Positions 43,278-46,567 are shown, numbered from the stretch's first letter. The stretch: 64,000 nt of DNA from Minisyncoccota bacterium (GCA_041917695.1 JAYRXE010000037.1:222905-286904), one strand, 5' to 3'. Numbers and translations are program-made. The notes: generated by a model not told the origin, from the sequence alone.

Positions 43278-43355
43278 TTCCGATTGACAGCGCTGCTTGC
43301 GCCAGGCAGGATAGGGTCAGCATTTCAATAACTTATTACAGAAAGGAAGGCATCC

Positions 43356-44453
43356 GTGCCTAAAAAAGGAAAACCGGACATCATCCAGGTCGAGTACATC
43401 TGGGTCCGCGGACCGAAAAAGGACCGTAAGACGCAGACGTTGTGTTCAAAAACAAAAGTCATAGAGAATCCGTATCCGAAAGGAACGACTTTCTTAGATC
43501 CCCGAAAACTTCCGCCGTGGGGGTTTGACGGATCGAGTACTGAACAGGCAAAAACGGAAAAAAGCGATTGCCTGCTTACACCGGTATACGTTGTTCCCGA
43601 TCCCATCCAGGGCGGGGGAAATCTCTTAGCTTTGTGCGAAGTGATGGATGCAGACGGGAAACCCCATCCGACGAATACCCGCGCCATGTTGCGGAGCATC
43701 GCCCCAAAATACAAACGCTACGATGCATGGTTCGGCATGGAGCAGGAATACACGCTTTATGACGAACACGGAAACTGGCCGTATGGTTGGCCGGATAAAG
43801 GATATCCCTTCGAACAGGGGGGGAACTATTGCGGCGTCGGCTCCGATGAAGTGTATGGTACCGCTCTTGTGAAGGAACATACGCGCATGTGTATCGCCTC
43901 CGGCATCAAAATTTCCGGAACGAATGCGGAAGTGATGCCTTCGCAATGGGAATTCCAGGTCGGGCCGTTAGGACCCCTCGAAATAGGGGATCAACTGCTC
44001 ATCGCCCGCTGGCTTCTTTTTATCTTGGGTGAGAAATACCGCATCAGCGTAAAACTTGACCCAAAGCCCCTTGAAAAAGGCAATTGGAACGGTGCGGGCA
44101 TGCACACCAACTTCAGCACCGCTCTTATGCGCGGAAAGGGAGGTATTAAGGCCGTTCTGAAAGCATGCGAGGCGCTGAAGGAATCCCATAAAGAACACAT
44201 TGCCGTATATGGCGAATACAACGATAAGCGGCTGACCGGCAATCACGAAACGGGAAGCTACAAGAAATTCACCTTTGGCAAAAGCGACCGGAGCGCTTCG
44301 GTGAGGATTCCCGTTTCGGGAACATACCTCGAAGACCGCCGGCCGGGCGCGAATGCAGACCCCTACAAGATTGCCTACGCGCTTCTTCAGAGCGTGTGTG
44401 GCAAAGGATTCGAAGCCCCGGAACACTGGATAGAGTTGAAAGTGAAGGAATGA
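43356..44453 (+). CDS. glnII: Glutamine synthetase, type II (GlnII-like).
   Basis: NYCGVGSDEVYG, GTNAEVMPSQWEFQVGP, NWNGAGMHTNFST match GSII signatures. GTG start with AAAGGAAGG SD. Confidence 0.8.
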   Translation: MPKKGKPDIIQVEYIWVRGPKKDRKTQTLCSKTKVIENPYPKGTTFLDPRKLPPWGFDGSSTEQAKTEKSDCLLTPVYVVPDPIQGGGNLLALCEVMDADGKPHPTNTRAMLRSIAPKYKRYDAWFGMEQEYTLYDEHGNWPYGWPDKGYPFEQGGNYCGVGSDEVYGTALVKEHTRMCIASGIKISGTNAEVMPSQWEFQVGPLGPLEIGDQLLIARWLLFILGEKYRISVKLDPKPLEKGNWNGAGMHTNFSTALMRGKGGIKAVLKACEALKESHKEHIAVYGEYNDKRLTGNHETGSYKKFTFGKSDRSASVRIPVSGTYLEDRRPGANADPYKIAYALLQSVCGKGFEAPEHWIELKVKE

Positions 44454-44462
44454 TGAAAAGAC

Positions 44463-44505
44463 AAATCCCCCGATTTGCCGACTGGCGGAGGGGGATTTTT
44501 ATTTA
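44463..44505 (+). terminator. Rho-independent terminator.
   Basis: aaatcccccgatttgccgactggcggagggggatttttattt. Confidence 0.6.
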
Positions 44506-44532
44506 AAAAAAGCCCCGTAAAGAATCATACGG
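44504..44532 (-). terminator. Putative terminator of the minus-strand tRNA cluster.
   Basis: Minus strand ccgtatgattctttacgg followed by ggcttttttt. Confidence 0.35.
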
Positions 44533-44562
44533 AGCTTACTAAAGGAGGAGAAAACAAATATG

Positions 44563-44653
44563 TGGACAGGGGAGGACTTGAACCTCCGACCCTTCTTTTT
44601 CAAGGAAGTGCTCTACCAGAAGATTCACCATCTTCTTTCTGAGTTACCTGTCC
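44563..44653 (-). tRNA. tRNA-Phe (GAA) with a 21-nt hairpin insertion in the D-loop (91 nt, no encoded CCA).
   Basis: Minus strand: GGACAGG-TA-ACTC-AG[AAAGAAGATGGTGAATCTTCT]GGTA-GAGC-A-CTTCC-TTGAAAA-AGAAG-GGTC-GGAGG-TTCAAGT-CCTCC-CCTGTCC-A. Acceptor and T-arm fully paired. The anticodon loop is canonical (U33, GAA, A37). Confidence 0.55.
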
Positions 44654-44660
44654 GAATGCG

Positions 44661-44756
44661 TGAGCGGAAAAGGATTCGAACCTCTGGCCTCCAGATTCCG
44701 GAAACCCCCCACGGGATTGTTTAGTCTGGCGCTCTGCCGGTCTGAGCTATCCGCCC
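44661..44756 (-). tRNA. tRNA gene (96 nt) with an insertion of about 22 nt in the anticodon loop. Anticodon undetermined (CGG/Pro is one possibility).
   Basis: Minus strand: GGGCGGA-TA-GCTC-AGACCGGCA-GAGC-G-CCAGA-[CTAAACAATCCCGTGGGGGGTTTCCGGAA]-TCTGG-AGGCC-AGAGG-TTCGAAT-CCTTT-TCCGCTC-A. All stems pair. The 29-nt loop region contains a hairpin AATCCC/GGGGTT. Confidence 0.45.
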
Positions 44757-44782
44757 CATAAATCATATTTATTCGCGTATCG

Positions 44783-44896
44783 CACCGGAGAAAGGAGTCG
44801 AACCTCCGACCTTCTTGCGGGTCAAGCAAGACGCTCTCACCACGGGGTTTTATCTCTCCAGCATGCGTAAAGAGACCCTTGCTGAGCTACTCCGGT
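44783..44896 (-). tRNA. tRNA-Val (GAC)-like gene (114 nt) with a D-loop insertion of about 37 nt.
   Basis: Minus strand: ACCGGAG-TA-GCTC-AG[CAAGGGTCTCTTTACGCATGCTGGAGAGATAAAACCCC]GTGGTGA-GAGC-G-TCTTGC-TTGACCC-GCAAGA-AGGTC-GGAGG-TTCGACT-CCTTT-CTCCGGT-G. The insert can form GGGTCTCT/AGAGA..ACCC pairing. Confidence 0.45.
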
Positions 44897-44915
44897 ATTG
44901 TTAAGCAACGGCTTT

Positions 44916-44943
44916 TTTATACCTTTATTAAAAATAAAGTCAA
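44916..44943 (-). promoter_or_regulatory. Sigma70-like promoter for the tRNA cluster (minus strand TTGACT-N16-TATAAA).
   Basis: -35 = revcomp of 44938-44943, -10 = revcomp of 44916-44921. The predicted TSS is about 10 nt upstream of the tRNA 5' end at 44896. Confidence 0.5.
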
Positions 44944-44953
44944 GTCGGCTATA

Positions 44954-45397
44954 ATGAAGAATATGGAAAAGAAAATCATCATTCCTCTCGCAATCGTGGC
45001 CGTTCTCGTTGCCGGCGGATATGTCTATCAGCATCGATACCAGCTTTTCACGTTTGAAAATGGCAGCATCCAGATTGCTGAAAAGCCTGTTGAGCTTGCA
45101 ATACTGGGAACGTGGCGGAGCGCCGATGATCCGAAATTCACCCGAGAATTCACTGAAGACGGAAAAGTGATTGACCGGTATGAAGGAGACGCGTCTGCCG
45201 ACGTTGAGGGACGATGGTATGTTACGTCGACCGCCGAGATACCGTTTTCGATTCCCGTCGTGGAAGGGGCGACGGATATAAAGCTCCAATTCCCCGATGG
45301 AAACTATTTCTTCCGCGTAGCGGATGTTTCACGCACATCGCTCACACTCATCTATCTTGAACGCGGGAATTCGCTTCGATTTGAGCGCGCCCGCTAA
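44954..45397 (+). CDS. Hypothetical membrane-anchored protein.
   Basis: MKNMEKKIIIPLAIVAVLVAGGYVY transmembrane segment, then a soluble domain. The upstream part of ORF 44879.. overlaps the tRNA and was excluded. TATAAT 44949-44954. Confidence 0.5.
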   Translation: MKNMEKKIIIPLAIVAVLVAGGYVYQHRYQLFTFENGSIQIAEKPVELAILGTWRSADDPKFTREFTEDGKVIDRYEGDASADVEGRWYVTSTAEIPFSIPVVEGATDIKLQFPDGNYFFRVADVSRTSLTLIYLERGNSLRFERAR

Positions 45398-46008
45398 TTT
45401 CCCTCCACCGATCTTTTGGCTTTGCGGACGGAATAAATGACGGCGATGACGACGCCCGTAGCAAAGAGCGCGAGGAGGATGTTCGATGCGGCGCCTATTT
45501 TCGGCGCGTATTCCTCCCAGTATTTTCCGAGGATACTCCCGAGGATGGCATATCCGCCGCTCCAGATGAGTGCGGAAATGATGACGGCGGTAAGGTAGGT
45601 TCGCGGGCGCACGTGAAGCGCTCCCGCCGCAACTGACGTGTAGCCGCGTACGTAGGGGATGAGCCGACCCGCGAGAATTCCCCAAAAACCCTTTTTGGAA
45701 ACGCGCTCGCCAATTCGCTCGATGCGCTCCCGTGATAGCGGCAGCCATTTCGGCTTATGCCGGAAGATCTGTTCCTCAAAGAAATAGAAAACCCCGTAGA
45801 GGAGGGCTGTGCCGATGAAGTCAGCGCTAACGACGACGAGAAAAAGCACGGGCAGGCTGAAGGTGCCGATGGAGACCAGGTATCCCGAAAAAAGAAGGAC
45901 GAGTTCGTTCGGGACAGGGTTCGGGAAGCCGATTTCTTGGAGAAAAACGAGGCCGAAAACCGCAAGATATCCGTATTTTCCGATAAAAAGGGCGAGTTCA
46001 GGAGGCAT
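45394..46008 (-). CDS. DedA/SNARE-associated (VTT domain) family membrane protein.
   Basis: FLQEIGFPNPVPNELVLLFSGYL and LAGRLIPYVRGYTSVAAGALHV motifs, 204 aa. Confidence 0.8.
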   Translation of the reverse strand: MPPELALFIGKYGYLAVFGLVFLQEIGFPNPVPNELVLLFSGYLVSIGTFSLPVLFLVVVSADFIGTALLYGVFYFFEEQIFRHKPKWLPLSRERIERIGERVSKKGFWGILAGRLIPYVRGYTSVAAGALHVRPRTYLTAVIISALIWSGGYAILGSILGKYWEEYAPKIGAASNILLALFATGVVIAVIYSVRKAKRSVEGN

Positions 46009-46114
46009 GCATCAATTGTACTCGCTCCGCGCACCCTGCGGAAGCGATTTGCCTCTCGGGGCATGGAAGGGTATAAGAAAAAGCAGAAAATTAAATAACG
46101 AAAAGGAGGTTTGG

Positions 46115-46567
46115 ATGAAATTTGTGAAGATTGCGATGCCTCAGGAATCGGCACGGGGCTACTTCCTCTATCCGAGTATGCCGGAAGACAAAATGGAGCA
46201 TGATGGCTTCTTCTTGATTGGACAGGGGAATAACTGGGCATGGTTTGCGGTCGAAGCAAACGGAGATGGATTCACGCCCCTTATTGCGCAGGCGTGCGGA
46301 TTCCGTTGTCCGCAAAGCGAAGATGAATTTCGCATCGTCAAAACCTTTAAGATCGATCAAGCGCTTGCACTGGGCATCAGCCATATGCTCATCCTGCTTC
46401 AGGAATTCGTGCTTACGATGGTTGAGATAGACGATGATTCGTGCGAGGCCGATTCACTCACCTTGAGGGAATATTTTTCAGGCCTCAGGGTTTGCGTAAA
46501 GGAATTCTTGGATTTCATCGAGGATGAATCCGCACATCCTAATTTCACTTTTCTTAACCATGCATGA
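46115..46567 (+). CDS. Hypothetical protein.
   Basis: 150 aa. Perfect SD AAGGAGGT 5 nt upstream of the ATG at 46115. The upstream 102 aa of ORF 45809.. are antisense to DedA. Confidence 0.55.
   Translation: MKFVKIAMPQESARGYFLYPSMPEDKMEHDGFFLIGQGNNWAWFAVEANGDGFTPLIAQACGFRCPQSEDEFRIVKTFKIDQALALGISHMLILLQEFVLTMVEIDDDSCEADSLTLREYFSGLRVCVKEFLDFIEDESAHPNFTFLNHA

What the first reader, a model, noticed from the sequence alone, without database searches (positions are those of the whole stretch)
44504..44943. Three tandem tRNA genes, each needing a hairpin-forming insertion to fit a cloverleaf
- Three co-transcribed minus-strand tRNA genes: Phe-GAA, one of unknown identity, and a Val-GAC-like gene.
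- All three have perfectly paired acceptor stems and canonical T-arms.
- None can be folded canonically without an extra stem-loop: 21 nt in the D-loop of tRNA-Phe, about 22 nt in the anticodon loop of the second, and about 37 nt in the D-loop of the third.
- Each insert is internally self-complementary.
- A promoter sits immediately upstream and a terminator downstream, and no CCA is encoded. This argues for functional genes, not decayed pseudogenes.
- Bacterial tRNA introns are normally group I elements of 200 nt or more in the anticodon loop. Short hairpin inserts at D-loop positions are not a described bacterial feature.
- Possibilities are non-canonical introns that need an unknown processing activity, lineage-specific expanded tRNAs, or tRNA-like regulatory or mobile elements.
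Basis: seen in the sequence. Interest (0 to 1): 0.75.

Follow-up and report, generated by a model that had tools for sequence, protein, structure and literature searches.

The report
Three hairpin-interrupted tRNA genes
A small bacterium of the Patescibacteria (CPR) group carries a three-gene tRNA operon in which every gene is interrupted by a short hairpin at a place where no bacterial tRNA intron is known; this could be a new kind of tRNA insert or splicing, but here it is seen in one genome only and in a non-conserved gene islet.

Summary
On the minus strand at 44563-44896 lie three adjacent tRNA-like genes. All three have 7-bp acceptor stems, canonical T-arms and intact tertiary-contact bases. 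Each carries an extra hairpin:
- A (Val-GAC-like): about 36 nt in the D-loop.
- B (identity ambiguous, Arg-CCG-like or Pro-CGG-like): 20-22 nt in the anticodon loop.
- C (Phe-GAA): 19 nt between D-loop positions 17 and 18.

Chance gives 0.01 such genes per window. Deleting the hairpins in silico gives tRNAs that score like canonical ones.

The inserts are not group I or II introns and do not form bulge-helix-bulge motifs. They are not repeated elsewhere in the window.

New context:
- The same genome has canonical tRNA-Ile and tRNA-Ala.
- The cluster sits in a 3.3-kb lineage-specific islet between DUF4012 and lepA, which are adjacent in 12 of 15 relatives.
- A and B stay non-canonical in the anticodon arm even after "splicing".
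- No orthologue was found anywhere, so conservation could not be tested.

I favour (0.4) expressed accessory tRNA-like RNAs that keep their hairpins. Excision by an unknown pathway (0.3) and decay (0.15) remain open. Small-RNA sequencing would decide.

The parts
44916..44943 (-). Promoter-like site upstream of gene A: TTGACT (44943-44938), 16-nt spacer, TATAAA (44921-44916). Gene A starts 19 nt downstream of the -10 hexamer.
   Evidence: Read from the sequence. Not listed by the consensus scan because the -10 hexamer lacks the final T.
44783..44896 (-). tRNA-like gene A (114 nt).
- Acceptor ACCGGAG/CTCCGGT, discriminator G.
- D-stem GCTC/GAGC.
- Anticodon arm TCTTGC-UUGACCC-GCAAGA (6 bp plus a 7-nt loop, GAC anticodon at 44823-44821, C at position 37).
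- T-arm GGAGG-TTCGACT-CCTTT.
   Evidence: ARAGORN calls Val-GAC only after a 36-37-nt deletion. No Rfam tRNA match as it stands.
44844..44880 (-). Insert of gene A in the D-loop, 5' of G18-G19. The hairpin is GGG/CCC plus an 8-bp stem UCUCUUUA/UGGAGAGA, with a 6-nt bulge. A 36-nt deletion (gene positions 17-52) restores an 11-nt D-loop.
   Evidence: -8.2 kcal/mol, z -1.4. Unique in the window.
44661..44756 (-). tRNA-like gene B (96 nt).
- Acceptor GGGCGGA/TCCGCTC (one G-U pair), discriminator A.
- Normal D-arm and T-arm.
- Anticodon stem CCAGA/TCTGG closing a 29-nt loop.
   Evidence: Rfam RF00005 at 55.1 bits with a 27-nt insertion. ARAGORN gives 'tRNA-???'.
44696..44724 (-). The 29-nt anticodon loop of B, containing the 21-nt hairpin AAACAAUCCCGUGGGGGGUUU (44722-44702).
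- Removing 21 nt leaves CUCCGGAA.
- Removing 20 nt gives a 6-bp stem plus UUCCGGA (Arg-CCG-like).
- Removing 22 nt gives CUCGGAA (Pro-CGG with A37).
44563..44653 (-). tRNA-like gene C (91 nt), Phe-GAA.
- Acceptor GGACAGG/CCTGTCC, discriminator A.
- Anticodon loop UUGAAAA (anticodon at 44601-44599).
- T-arm GGAGG-TTCAAGT-CCTCC.
- A10-C25 and C31-A39 mismatches, and a 4-nt variable loop.
   Evidence: ARAGORN calls Phe-GAA only after a 17-22-nt deletion.
44618..44636 (-). Insert of gene C: a perfect 7-bp hairpin AGAAGAU-GGUGA-AUCUUCU between D-loop positions 17 and 18. Removing it leaves the canonical 8-nt D-loop AGAAGGUA.
   Evidence: -6.3 kcal/mol, z -3.7, 2 of 200 shuffles.
44500..44537 (-). 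Intrinsic terminator after gene C: a 10-pair stem followed by a T-run.
43278..46563 (.). Lineage-specific islet that holds the tRNA cluster. It contains a glutamine synthetase with a patchy distribution, the three tRNA-like genes, an orphan 147-aa protein, a DedA/VTT protein and an orphan 150-aa protein. It is inserted between DUF4012 and lepA.
   Evidence: DUF4012 and lepA are adjacent (4-182 nt apart) in 12 of 15 related loci. GC is 0.512 against 0.55-0.57 in the flanks.

Best explanation
This is an accessory, lineage-specific operon of three tRNA-derived genes. I propose it works as follows.
1. The operon is transcribed from a near-consensus sigma-70-type promoter as one precursor and ends at an intrinsic terminator.
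2. The precursor is cut into tRNA-sized pieces by the usual end-processing enzymes (RNase P, RNase Z, CCA addition).
3. Each product keeps the L-shaped tRNA core. The acceptor and T minihelix, the D-stem, G18-G19, U8-A14 and G15-C48 are all intact.
4. Each product also carries one extra hairpin. The hairpin projects from a loop where it does not disturb that core: the variable alpha region of the D-loop in A and C, and the anticodon loop in B.
5. I think it most likely that the hairpins stay in the mature RNAs, so these are structurally expanded tRNA or tRNA-like RNAs rather than intron-containing genes.
6. On this view C (Phe-GAA) and perhaps A could still be charged and could decode. B cannot decode and would act as a tRNA mimic, for example a decoy, a handle or a substrate for a tRNA-binding enzyme.

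Shown here: the gene anatomy, its non-chance nature, the absence of known intron signatures, and the islet context.

Inferred: transcription, processing, retention of the hairpins, and any function.
For: - The three genes are real and not chance.
- Stems and tertiary-contact bases are intact, and the exon parts score like canonical tRNAs.
- All three inserts lie in loops. Two lie at the same solvent-exposed D-loop site, 5' of G18. This is what structural tolerance predicts, rather than random insertion.
- No excision machinery or signal is visible.
  - No group I or II intron or ribozyme match.
  - No bulge-helix-bulge motif above chance whose removal gives a tRNA.
  - Stems of 6-8 bp are too short for RNase III, by established knowledge.
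  - No RtcB or EndA in about 76 kb of this genome.
- A and B remain non-canonical in the anticodon arm after any single excision. So removing the hairpins would not restore ordinary tRNAs.
- The cluster lies in a non-conserved islet, and the genome has ordinary tRNAs elsewhere. This fits an accessory role.
- The terminator is confirmed and the promoter is near-consensus.
Against: - There are no RNA data and no orthologues, so retention is inferred from the lack of evidence for excision.
- A tRNA with a 19-36-nt hairpin at the elbow may clash with RNase P, the ribosome or synthetases. No natural precedent was found.
- Precise removal of C's hairpin restores a textbook 8-nt D-loop, which looks like an intron inserted into a working gene.
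- B has the best-preserved exons of the three, yet would be useless for decoding if its insert stays.
- Only 12% or less of the genome could be inspected, so whether canonical Phe, Val and Arg/Pro genes exist is unknown.
Confidence: 0.4

Rival explanations
1. The hairpins are true intervening sequences of a new kind. A protein endonuclease recognises the hairpin or loop context, cuts on both sides, and an RNA ligase (RtcB-type or other) rejoins the halves. This would yield mature Val-GAC, Arg-CCG (or Pro-CGG) and Phe-GAA tRNAs.
For: - It is the one explanation that makes all three genes useful, including B, whose 29-nt anticodon loop cannot decode.
- Removing C's 19-nt hairpin leaves a perfect AGAAGGUA D-loop. 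The in-silico spliced forms score 110-125% of the ARAGORN threshold, like canonical tRNAs.
- The sizes (19-36 nt) and sites (D-loop, anticodon loop) resemble the short non-canonical introns of archaea (my own knowledge).
- Patescibacteria are unusually rich in introns (PMC13011429).
- The promoter and terminator suggest expression.
Against: - There is no bulge-helix-bulge motif, no ribozyme, and no shared sequence at the junctions.
- No bacterial protein-dependent tRNA splicing is known (PMC13011429).
- No single excision gives B a conventional loop, and A's anticodon arm is aberrant without any insert there.
- No splicing enzyme is encoded in the roughly 76 kb inspected.
- Two of the three inserts share one structurally permissive site, which excision does not require.
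Confidence: 0.3
2. The genes are redundant, recently acquired or duplicated tRNA genes that are decaying. The hairpins are mutational insertions, and the products are not used.
For: - They lie in a non-conserved, lower-GC islet among orphan genes.
- The same genome has normal tRNAs.
- There are several small defects: A10-C25 and C31-A39 in C; C37 and a 6-bp stem in A; no clean mature form for B.
- No orthologues exist anywhere searched.
Against: - All three keep perfect 7-bp acceptor stems, T-arms, D-stems and every tertiary-contact base. The only large lesions are three hairpin-forming inserts, all in loops.
- Random insertion would hit stems about two times in three.
- A strong terminator, a near-consensus promoter and tight spacing are retained.
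- The inserts are not duplications of neighbouring sequence.
- Streamlined genomes rarely keep dead genes.
Confidence: 0.15
3. The hairpins are cut out without religation, as happens with rRNA intervening sequences. The result would be split tRNAs held together by base pairing.
For: - Bacterial rRNA intervening sequences are hairpin extensions removed without ligation (established knowledge).
- A cut in the D-loop would leave halves held by 11 bp (acceptor stem plus D-stem).
Against: - The stems are only 6-8 bp, well below RNase III substrates.
- A nicked anticodon loop would inactivate B.
- There is no precedent in tRNA.
Confidence: 0.05

Closest known systems
Archaeal short non-canonical tRNA introns (bulge-helix-bulge type, e.g. 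in Thermoproteales)
   Same: - Short (about 11-40 nt) structured inserts in tRNA genes.
- They occur at D-loop as well as anticodon-loop positions.
- Several tRNA genes in one genome are affected.
- The genes are missed by standard tRNA finders.
   Different: - The host here is a bacterium.
- No hBHBh' motif spans the junctions.
- No EndA was seen in the DNA inspected.
- Archaeal introns also sit in stems, whereas these sit only in loops.
Group I introns in bacterial tRNA genes, including the Patescibacteria 35/36 introns (PMC13011429)
   Same: - The same phylum.
- tRNA genes interrupted in the anticodon loop and missed by annotation tools.
   Different: - Group I introns are self-splicing ribozymes of about 200 nt or more.
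- The inserts here are 19-36 nt, with no Rfam intron match.
- Two of them lie in the D-loop.
'Enigmatic introns' in Lak megaphage tRNAs (PMC6784885)
   Same: - Inserts in tRNA genes of the bacterial world that are not group I introns.
- Unknown removal mechanism.
- Sequence identical across samples.
   Different: - The Lak example checked is 93 nt at position 37/38 of the anticodon loop, and one Lak insert may itself encode a tRNA.
- The host there is a phage.
- No D-loop hairpins are reported.
tRNAs with built-in extra arms (class II long variable arm, tRNA-Sec, allo-tRNA, tRNA-Pyl; PMC7609411)
   Same: - An additional or extended helix is kept in the mature tRNA.
- 6-bp anticodon stems exist (Sec, Pyl, mitochondrial Ser-UCN), as possibly in A and B.
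   Different: - The known extra arms lie in the variable region or extend existing stems.
- None is a hairpin emerging from the D-loop or from the anticodon loop.
Bacterial rRNA intervening sequences
   Same: Hairpin-like extensions inserted into a stable-RNA gene at surface-exposed loops.
   Different: - They are much longer, with long double-stranded stems cut by RNase III.
- They are found in rRNA only.
- The pieces are not religated.

Membership tests
Canonical bacterial tRNA (Rfam RF00005) | 7-bp acceptor stem, 5-bp T-stem, 7-nt T-loop UUCRANY, plus U8, A14, G18-G19, A21 and G53-C61 | tested here: met
   All three genes have them. Shuffles of the window give 0.01 such hits.
Canonical bacterial tRNA (Rfam RF00005) | Covariance-model score at or above the gathering threshold for the sequence as it stands | tested here: not met
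   B scores 55.1 bits against a threshold of 29, but with a 27-nt insertion. A and C get no tRNA match even at E<=10. ARAGORN finds neither A nor C.
Canonical bacterial tRNA (Rfam RF00005) | D-loop of 7-11 nt, and a 5-bp anticodon stem with a 7-nt loop | tested here: not met
   - D-loops are 47 nt (A) and 27 nt (C).
- The anticodon loop is 29 nt in B.
- A has 6 bp plus 7 nt, or a 9-nt loop.
- Only C's anticodon arm is canonical.
Group I intron | Conserved P3-P8 ribozyme core of about 200 nt or more | tested here: not met
   The inserts are 19-36 nt. There is no Intron_gpI match at the gathering threshold or at E<=10.
Group II intron | Six-domain ribozyme of several hundred nt | tested here: not met
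   Same calls (3, 6). The length excludes it.
Bulge-helix-bulge (archaeal/eukaryal) tRNA intron | Two 3-nt bulges on opposite strands, separated by a 4-bp helix and carrying the two splice sites | tested here: not met
   - The strict scan gives chance-level counts: 8, 4 and 2 hits against 4.7, 2.0 and 1.3 in shuffles.
- No hit in B or C yields a tRNA on excision.
- The one hit in A removes the 3' D-stem strand.
Bulge-helix-bulge (archaeal/eukaryal) tRNA intron | Splicing endonuclease (EndA) and an RtcB-type ligase encoded in the genome | not testable with these tools
   Only the 64-kb window plus about 12 kb of flanks of a contig of at least 680 kb could be read. Neither enzyme is present there.
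rRNA-type intervening sequence | Long double-stranded stem (about 20 bp) as an RNase III substrate | tested here: not met
   The stems are 7 bp (C), 6 bp (B) and 8+3 bp (A).
Lak-phage-type tRNA insert | Roughly 90-nt insert at 37/38 of the anticodon loop, sometimes tRNA-like itself | tested here: not met
   The inserts are 19-36 nt and two lie in the D-loop. B's position is ambiguous.
Repeated mobile element (MITE/REP-like) | Further copies of the insert sequence elsewhere | tested here: not met
   - Each insert is unique in the window at up to 3 mismatches.
- The inserts show no significant similarity to each other or to the rest of the genes.
- The rest of the genome was not searched.
tRNA pseudogene | Disrupted stems or lost invariant bases | tested here: inconclusive
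   The stems and invariant bases are intact. But A and B have aberrant anticodon arms, and C has two mismatches.

The most novel reading that the evidence does not exclude
A previously unknown class of short (about 19-36 nt) hairpin introns in bacterial tRNA genes, located in the D-loop (position 17/18) and in the anticodon loop. They would be removed by a protein-based cut-and-ligate pathway that is neither group I/II self-splicing nor bulge-helix-bulge splicing. That would be the first protein-dependent tRNA splicing in Bacteria.
Probability: 0.3. Interest if true: 0.85.

Novelty: new variant of a known kind. Interest (0 to 1): 0.6.

Why it matters
- Bacterial tRNA genes are thought to be interrupted only by self-splicing group I introns and, rarely, group II introns.
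- If these hairpins are excised, bacteria have an unrecognised tRNA splicing route. Annotation pipelines would then be missing a class of tRNA genes.
- If they are retained, they show that the tRNA elbow can carry a whole extra arm. That bears on tRNA engineering and on how RNase P, synthetases and the ribosome read the D-loop.
- Either way, standard tools missed two of the three genes. This affects completeness estimates for the tRNA sets of CPR genomes.
- The caveat is that this is one population, one locus and an accessory islet, with no RNA evidence.

Tried and rejected
1. **Archaeal origin with bulge-helix-bulge introns.** Rejected.
   - The window is bacterial: EF-Tu, lepA and the S10 operon are present, and the best neighbour hit is a Ca. 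Paceibacterota genome.
   - There is no bulge-helix-bulge motif.
2. **Looking for orthologues.** All routes failed.
   - 80 genome loci found through the glutamine synthetase held only canonical tRNAs.
   - 80 metagenome loci found through lepA gave no BLAST hit to any of the three genes.
   - The neighbouring 147-aa protein has only 3 distant homologues, and none is syntenic.
   - A search with the spurious ORF that overlaps the tRNAs returned only itself.
   - The closest glutamine synthetase homologues (59-61% identity) have no tRNA nearby.
   - Exact exon patterns in viral contigs found nothing.
   - A phage BLAST found only generic T-arm similarity.
3. **Strain variants.** Cluster members and 11 contigs from different samples are 100% identical over the tRNA region. 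No microevolution is visible.
4. **A fourth T-arm-like repeat at 44392-44424, inside the 3' end of the glutamine synthetase gene, as a possible attachment-site scar**. Rejected. It encodes the conserved C-terminus CG-GF-xP of the enzyme.
5. **Inserts as duplications of nearby tRNA sequence, or a shared element.** Not significant.
6. **RNA-processing function for the islet's orphan proteins.** There are no Pfam or PHROG hits. The AlphaFold model of the 150-aa protein is unusable (pLDDT 41).
8. **A generic pattern for Phe tRNAs with expanded D-loops in viral contigs.** It gave only chance hits or nested-tRNA cases.
9. **An apparent insertion in lepA of L088 and L089.** It was only the next GTPase gene merged into the match.

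Full report
**What is there**

The minus strand of 44500-44943 reads, in order:
- a near-consensus promoter, TTGACT-16 nt-TATAAA (44943-44916);
- three closely spaced tRNA-like genes, separated by spacers of 26 and 7 nt;
- an intrinsic terminator at 44537-44510.

The promoter was read by eye. The consensus scan did not list it because the -10 hexamer ends in A.

I scanned both strands for a 7-bp acceptor stem, U8, a 5-bp T-stem and a TTCRA T-loop. The scan finds exactly three elements in 64 kb, all here. Shuffled windows give 0.01.
- A = 44783-44896, 114 nt.
- B = 44661-44756, 96 nt.
- C = 44563-44653, 91 nt.

ARAGORN and Rfam see only B, and only by placing 27 extra nucleotides in its anticodon loop (55.1 bits). 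A and C get no tRNA match even at E<=10.

**Anatomy**

All three genes have U8, A14, G15 paired with C48, G18-G19, A21, G53-C61 and a T54-A58-type T-loop. None encodes CCA.

*Gene C*
- C is a textbook Phe-GAA gene: loop UUGAAAA, U20 and A73.
- It has a perfect 7-bp hairpin, AGAAGAU-GGUGA-AUCUUCU, between D-loop positions 17 and 18 (44636-44618). Its energy is -6.3 kcal/mol with z -3.7.
- Removing the hairpin leaves AGAAGGUA.

*Gene A*
- A has a 34-35-nt bulged hairpin at nearly the same D-loop site, 5' of G18-G19.
- A 36-37-nt deletion makes ARAGORN call Val-GAC.
- Its anticodon arm is odd without any insert there: 6 bp plus UUGACCC, with C at position 37. Its discriminator is G.

*Gene B*
- B has a normal body, but a 29-nt anticodon loop holding the 21-nt hairpin AAACAAUCCCGUGGGGGGUUU.
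- Removing 21 nt leaves CUCCGGAA, an 8-nt loop.
- Removing 20 nt gives a 6-bp stem plus UUCCGGA (Arg-CCG-like). This is the same 6-bp architecture as A.
- Removing 22 nt gives CUCGGAA, which is Pro-CGG with A37. By established knowledge G37 is expected in tRNA-Pro, so this is atypical.
- Its identity stays open.

The in-silico "spliced" forms pass ARAGORN up to 110-125% of its threshold. Canonical tRNAs do the same: tRNA-Ile and tRNA-Ala of this genome reach 115%, and 29 others reach 110-120%.

**What the inserts are not**

- There is no group I or II intron or other ribozyme family.
- A formal scan for bulge-helix-bulge motifs gives chance-level counts. No motif in B or C yields a tRNA on excision.
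- The inserts are unique in the window.
- They are not significantly similar to each other or to the rest of the genes.
- Their stems (6-8 bp) are too short for RNase III, by established knowledge.

**Organism and context**

- The window is bacterial. It encodes EF-Tu, lepA and the S10 operon.
- The neighbouring protein's nearest homologue is from a Ca. Paceibacterota genome, and the glutamine synthetase and lepA relatives are mostly Patescibacteria.
- The locus is 100% identical in at least 9 assemblies from different samples, so it is not an assembly artefact. It also shows no variation.
- About 6 kb beyond the right end of the window, the same genome has ordinary tRNA-Ile (73.7 bits) and tRNA-Ala (64.9 bits). 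Inserts are therefore not a genome-wide habit.
- In 12 of 15 related loci the DUF4012 gene and lepA are adjacent, 4-182 nt apart. In three others, unrelated genes are inserted at that spot.
- In the window the two genes are separated by a 3.3-kb islet (43278-46563, GC 0.512 against 0.55-0.57). It holds a glutamine synthetase with a patchy distribution, the three tRNA-like genes, two orphan proteins and a DedA protein.
- The cluster is therefore accessory and not part of conserved synteny.

**Search for relatives**

None was found, by any route:
- neighbour-gene synteny;
- the spurious ORF that overlaps the genes;
- exact exon patterns in viral contigs;
- BLAST against phage genomes.

In about 2.2 Mb of fetched loci, mostly Patescibacteria, no tRNA with a D-loop hairpin turned up. 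Conservation and covariation of the hairpins could not be tested.

**Literature**

[quoted passage not shown] It describes only group I inserts, plus one group II intron in a D-loop elsewhere (PMC13011429).
- A review of non-canonical tRNAs lists no D-loop hairpins (PMC7609411).
- The nearest published analogue is the "enigmatic introns" of Lak megaphage tRNAs. The example checked is 93 nt at 37/38, and one of these introns may itself encode a tRNA (PMC6784885).

**Interpretation**

Neutral decay fits poorly. Three adjacent genes each carry one large hairpin-forming insertion. All three insertions are in loops and two are at the same permissive D-loop site. Every stem and every invariant base is intact.

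The choice is between hairpins that are retained and hairpins that are excised.

For retention:
- there is no visible splicing signal or enzyme;
- the inserts are restricted to structurally tolerant sites;
- A and B would still be abnormal after excision;
- the location is accessory.

For excision:
- B cannot decode otherwise;
- precise removal of C's hairpin gives a perfect D-loop.

I put retention at 0.4, excision by an unknown pathway at 0.3, decay at 0.15 and cutting without ligation at 0.05. The remainder is unassigned. Expression, processing and function are all inferred, and RNA sequencing of the source samples would settle the matter.

**Verdict**

It is not covered by any described intron or tRNA class. 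It rests, however, on a single population and an accessory locus. Interest 0.6. Novelty: a new variant of a known kind (interrupted or expanded tRNA genes), which would become categorically new if splicing is shown.

Noticed in passing
window 43278-46563: A 3.3-kb lineage-specific islet sits between DUF4012 and lepA, which are adjacent in 12 of 15 relatives. It holds a glutamine synthetase, the tRNA cluster, two orphan proteins and a DedA protein. Three relatives (L091, L093, L096) carry other, unrelated insertions at the same junction, so this is a variable hot spot.
   Followed up: yes
L181:10266-10338 (same genome, about 6 kb right of the window): The canonical tRNA-Ile(GAT) of this genome has C instead of the near-universal U at T-loop position 55 (GGTCCGATTCC). 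tRNA-Ile and tRNA-Ala are divergently placed around a roughly 500-nt stretch, not inside an rRNA operon.
   Followed up: no
L185:4972-5121 and L204:2025-2174 (IMG/VR phage contigs): A complete tRNA-Phe(GAA)-like gene sits inside the anticodon loop of an outer tRNA-like gene, so one tRNA is nested in another. This is reminiscent of the Lak phage case in PMC6784885.
   Followed up: no
L215:7513-7629 and L215:4323-4418 (IMG/VR phage contig): Two odd phage tRNA-like genes. One is 117 nt and is read by ARAGORN's intron mode as tRNA-Trp with a 42-nt insert. The other is 96 nt with a 7-bp D-stem and a long irregular anticodon arm.
   Followed up: no
L101:13465-13595, L118:15499-15615, L140:14735-14867 (Patescibacteria metagenome loci): Three tRNA-Thr(CGT) genes are each preceded, 45-60 nt upstream, by a duplicated copy of their own 5' end. 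These are probably scars of integration or excision at the tRNA gene.
   Followed up: no
window 43356-44453: The short (365-aa) glutamine synthetase has best hits of only 54-62% identity. They are scattered over Patescibacteria, myxobacteria, Actinomarina, Thermoplasmatota and others, a patchy distribution that looks like horizontal transfer. In four Patescibacteria loci (L002, L006, L010, L011) it lies directly next to tRNA genes.
   Followed up: partly
window 44697-44714 versus 43515-43532: The insert region of gene B (CCGUGGGGGGUUUCCGGA) resembles an 18-nt stretch of the glutamine synthetase coding strand (15 of 18 bases). A and B also share AAYCCCGUGG. Both are probably chance.
   Followed up: partly
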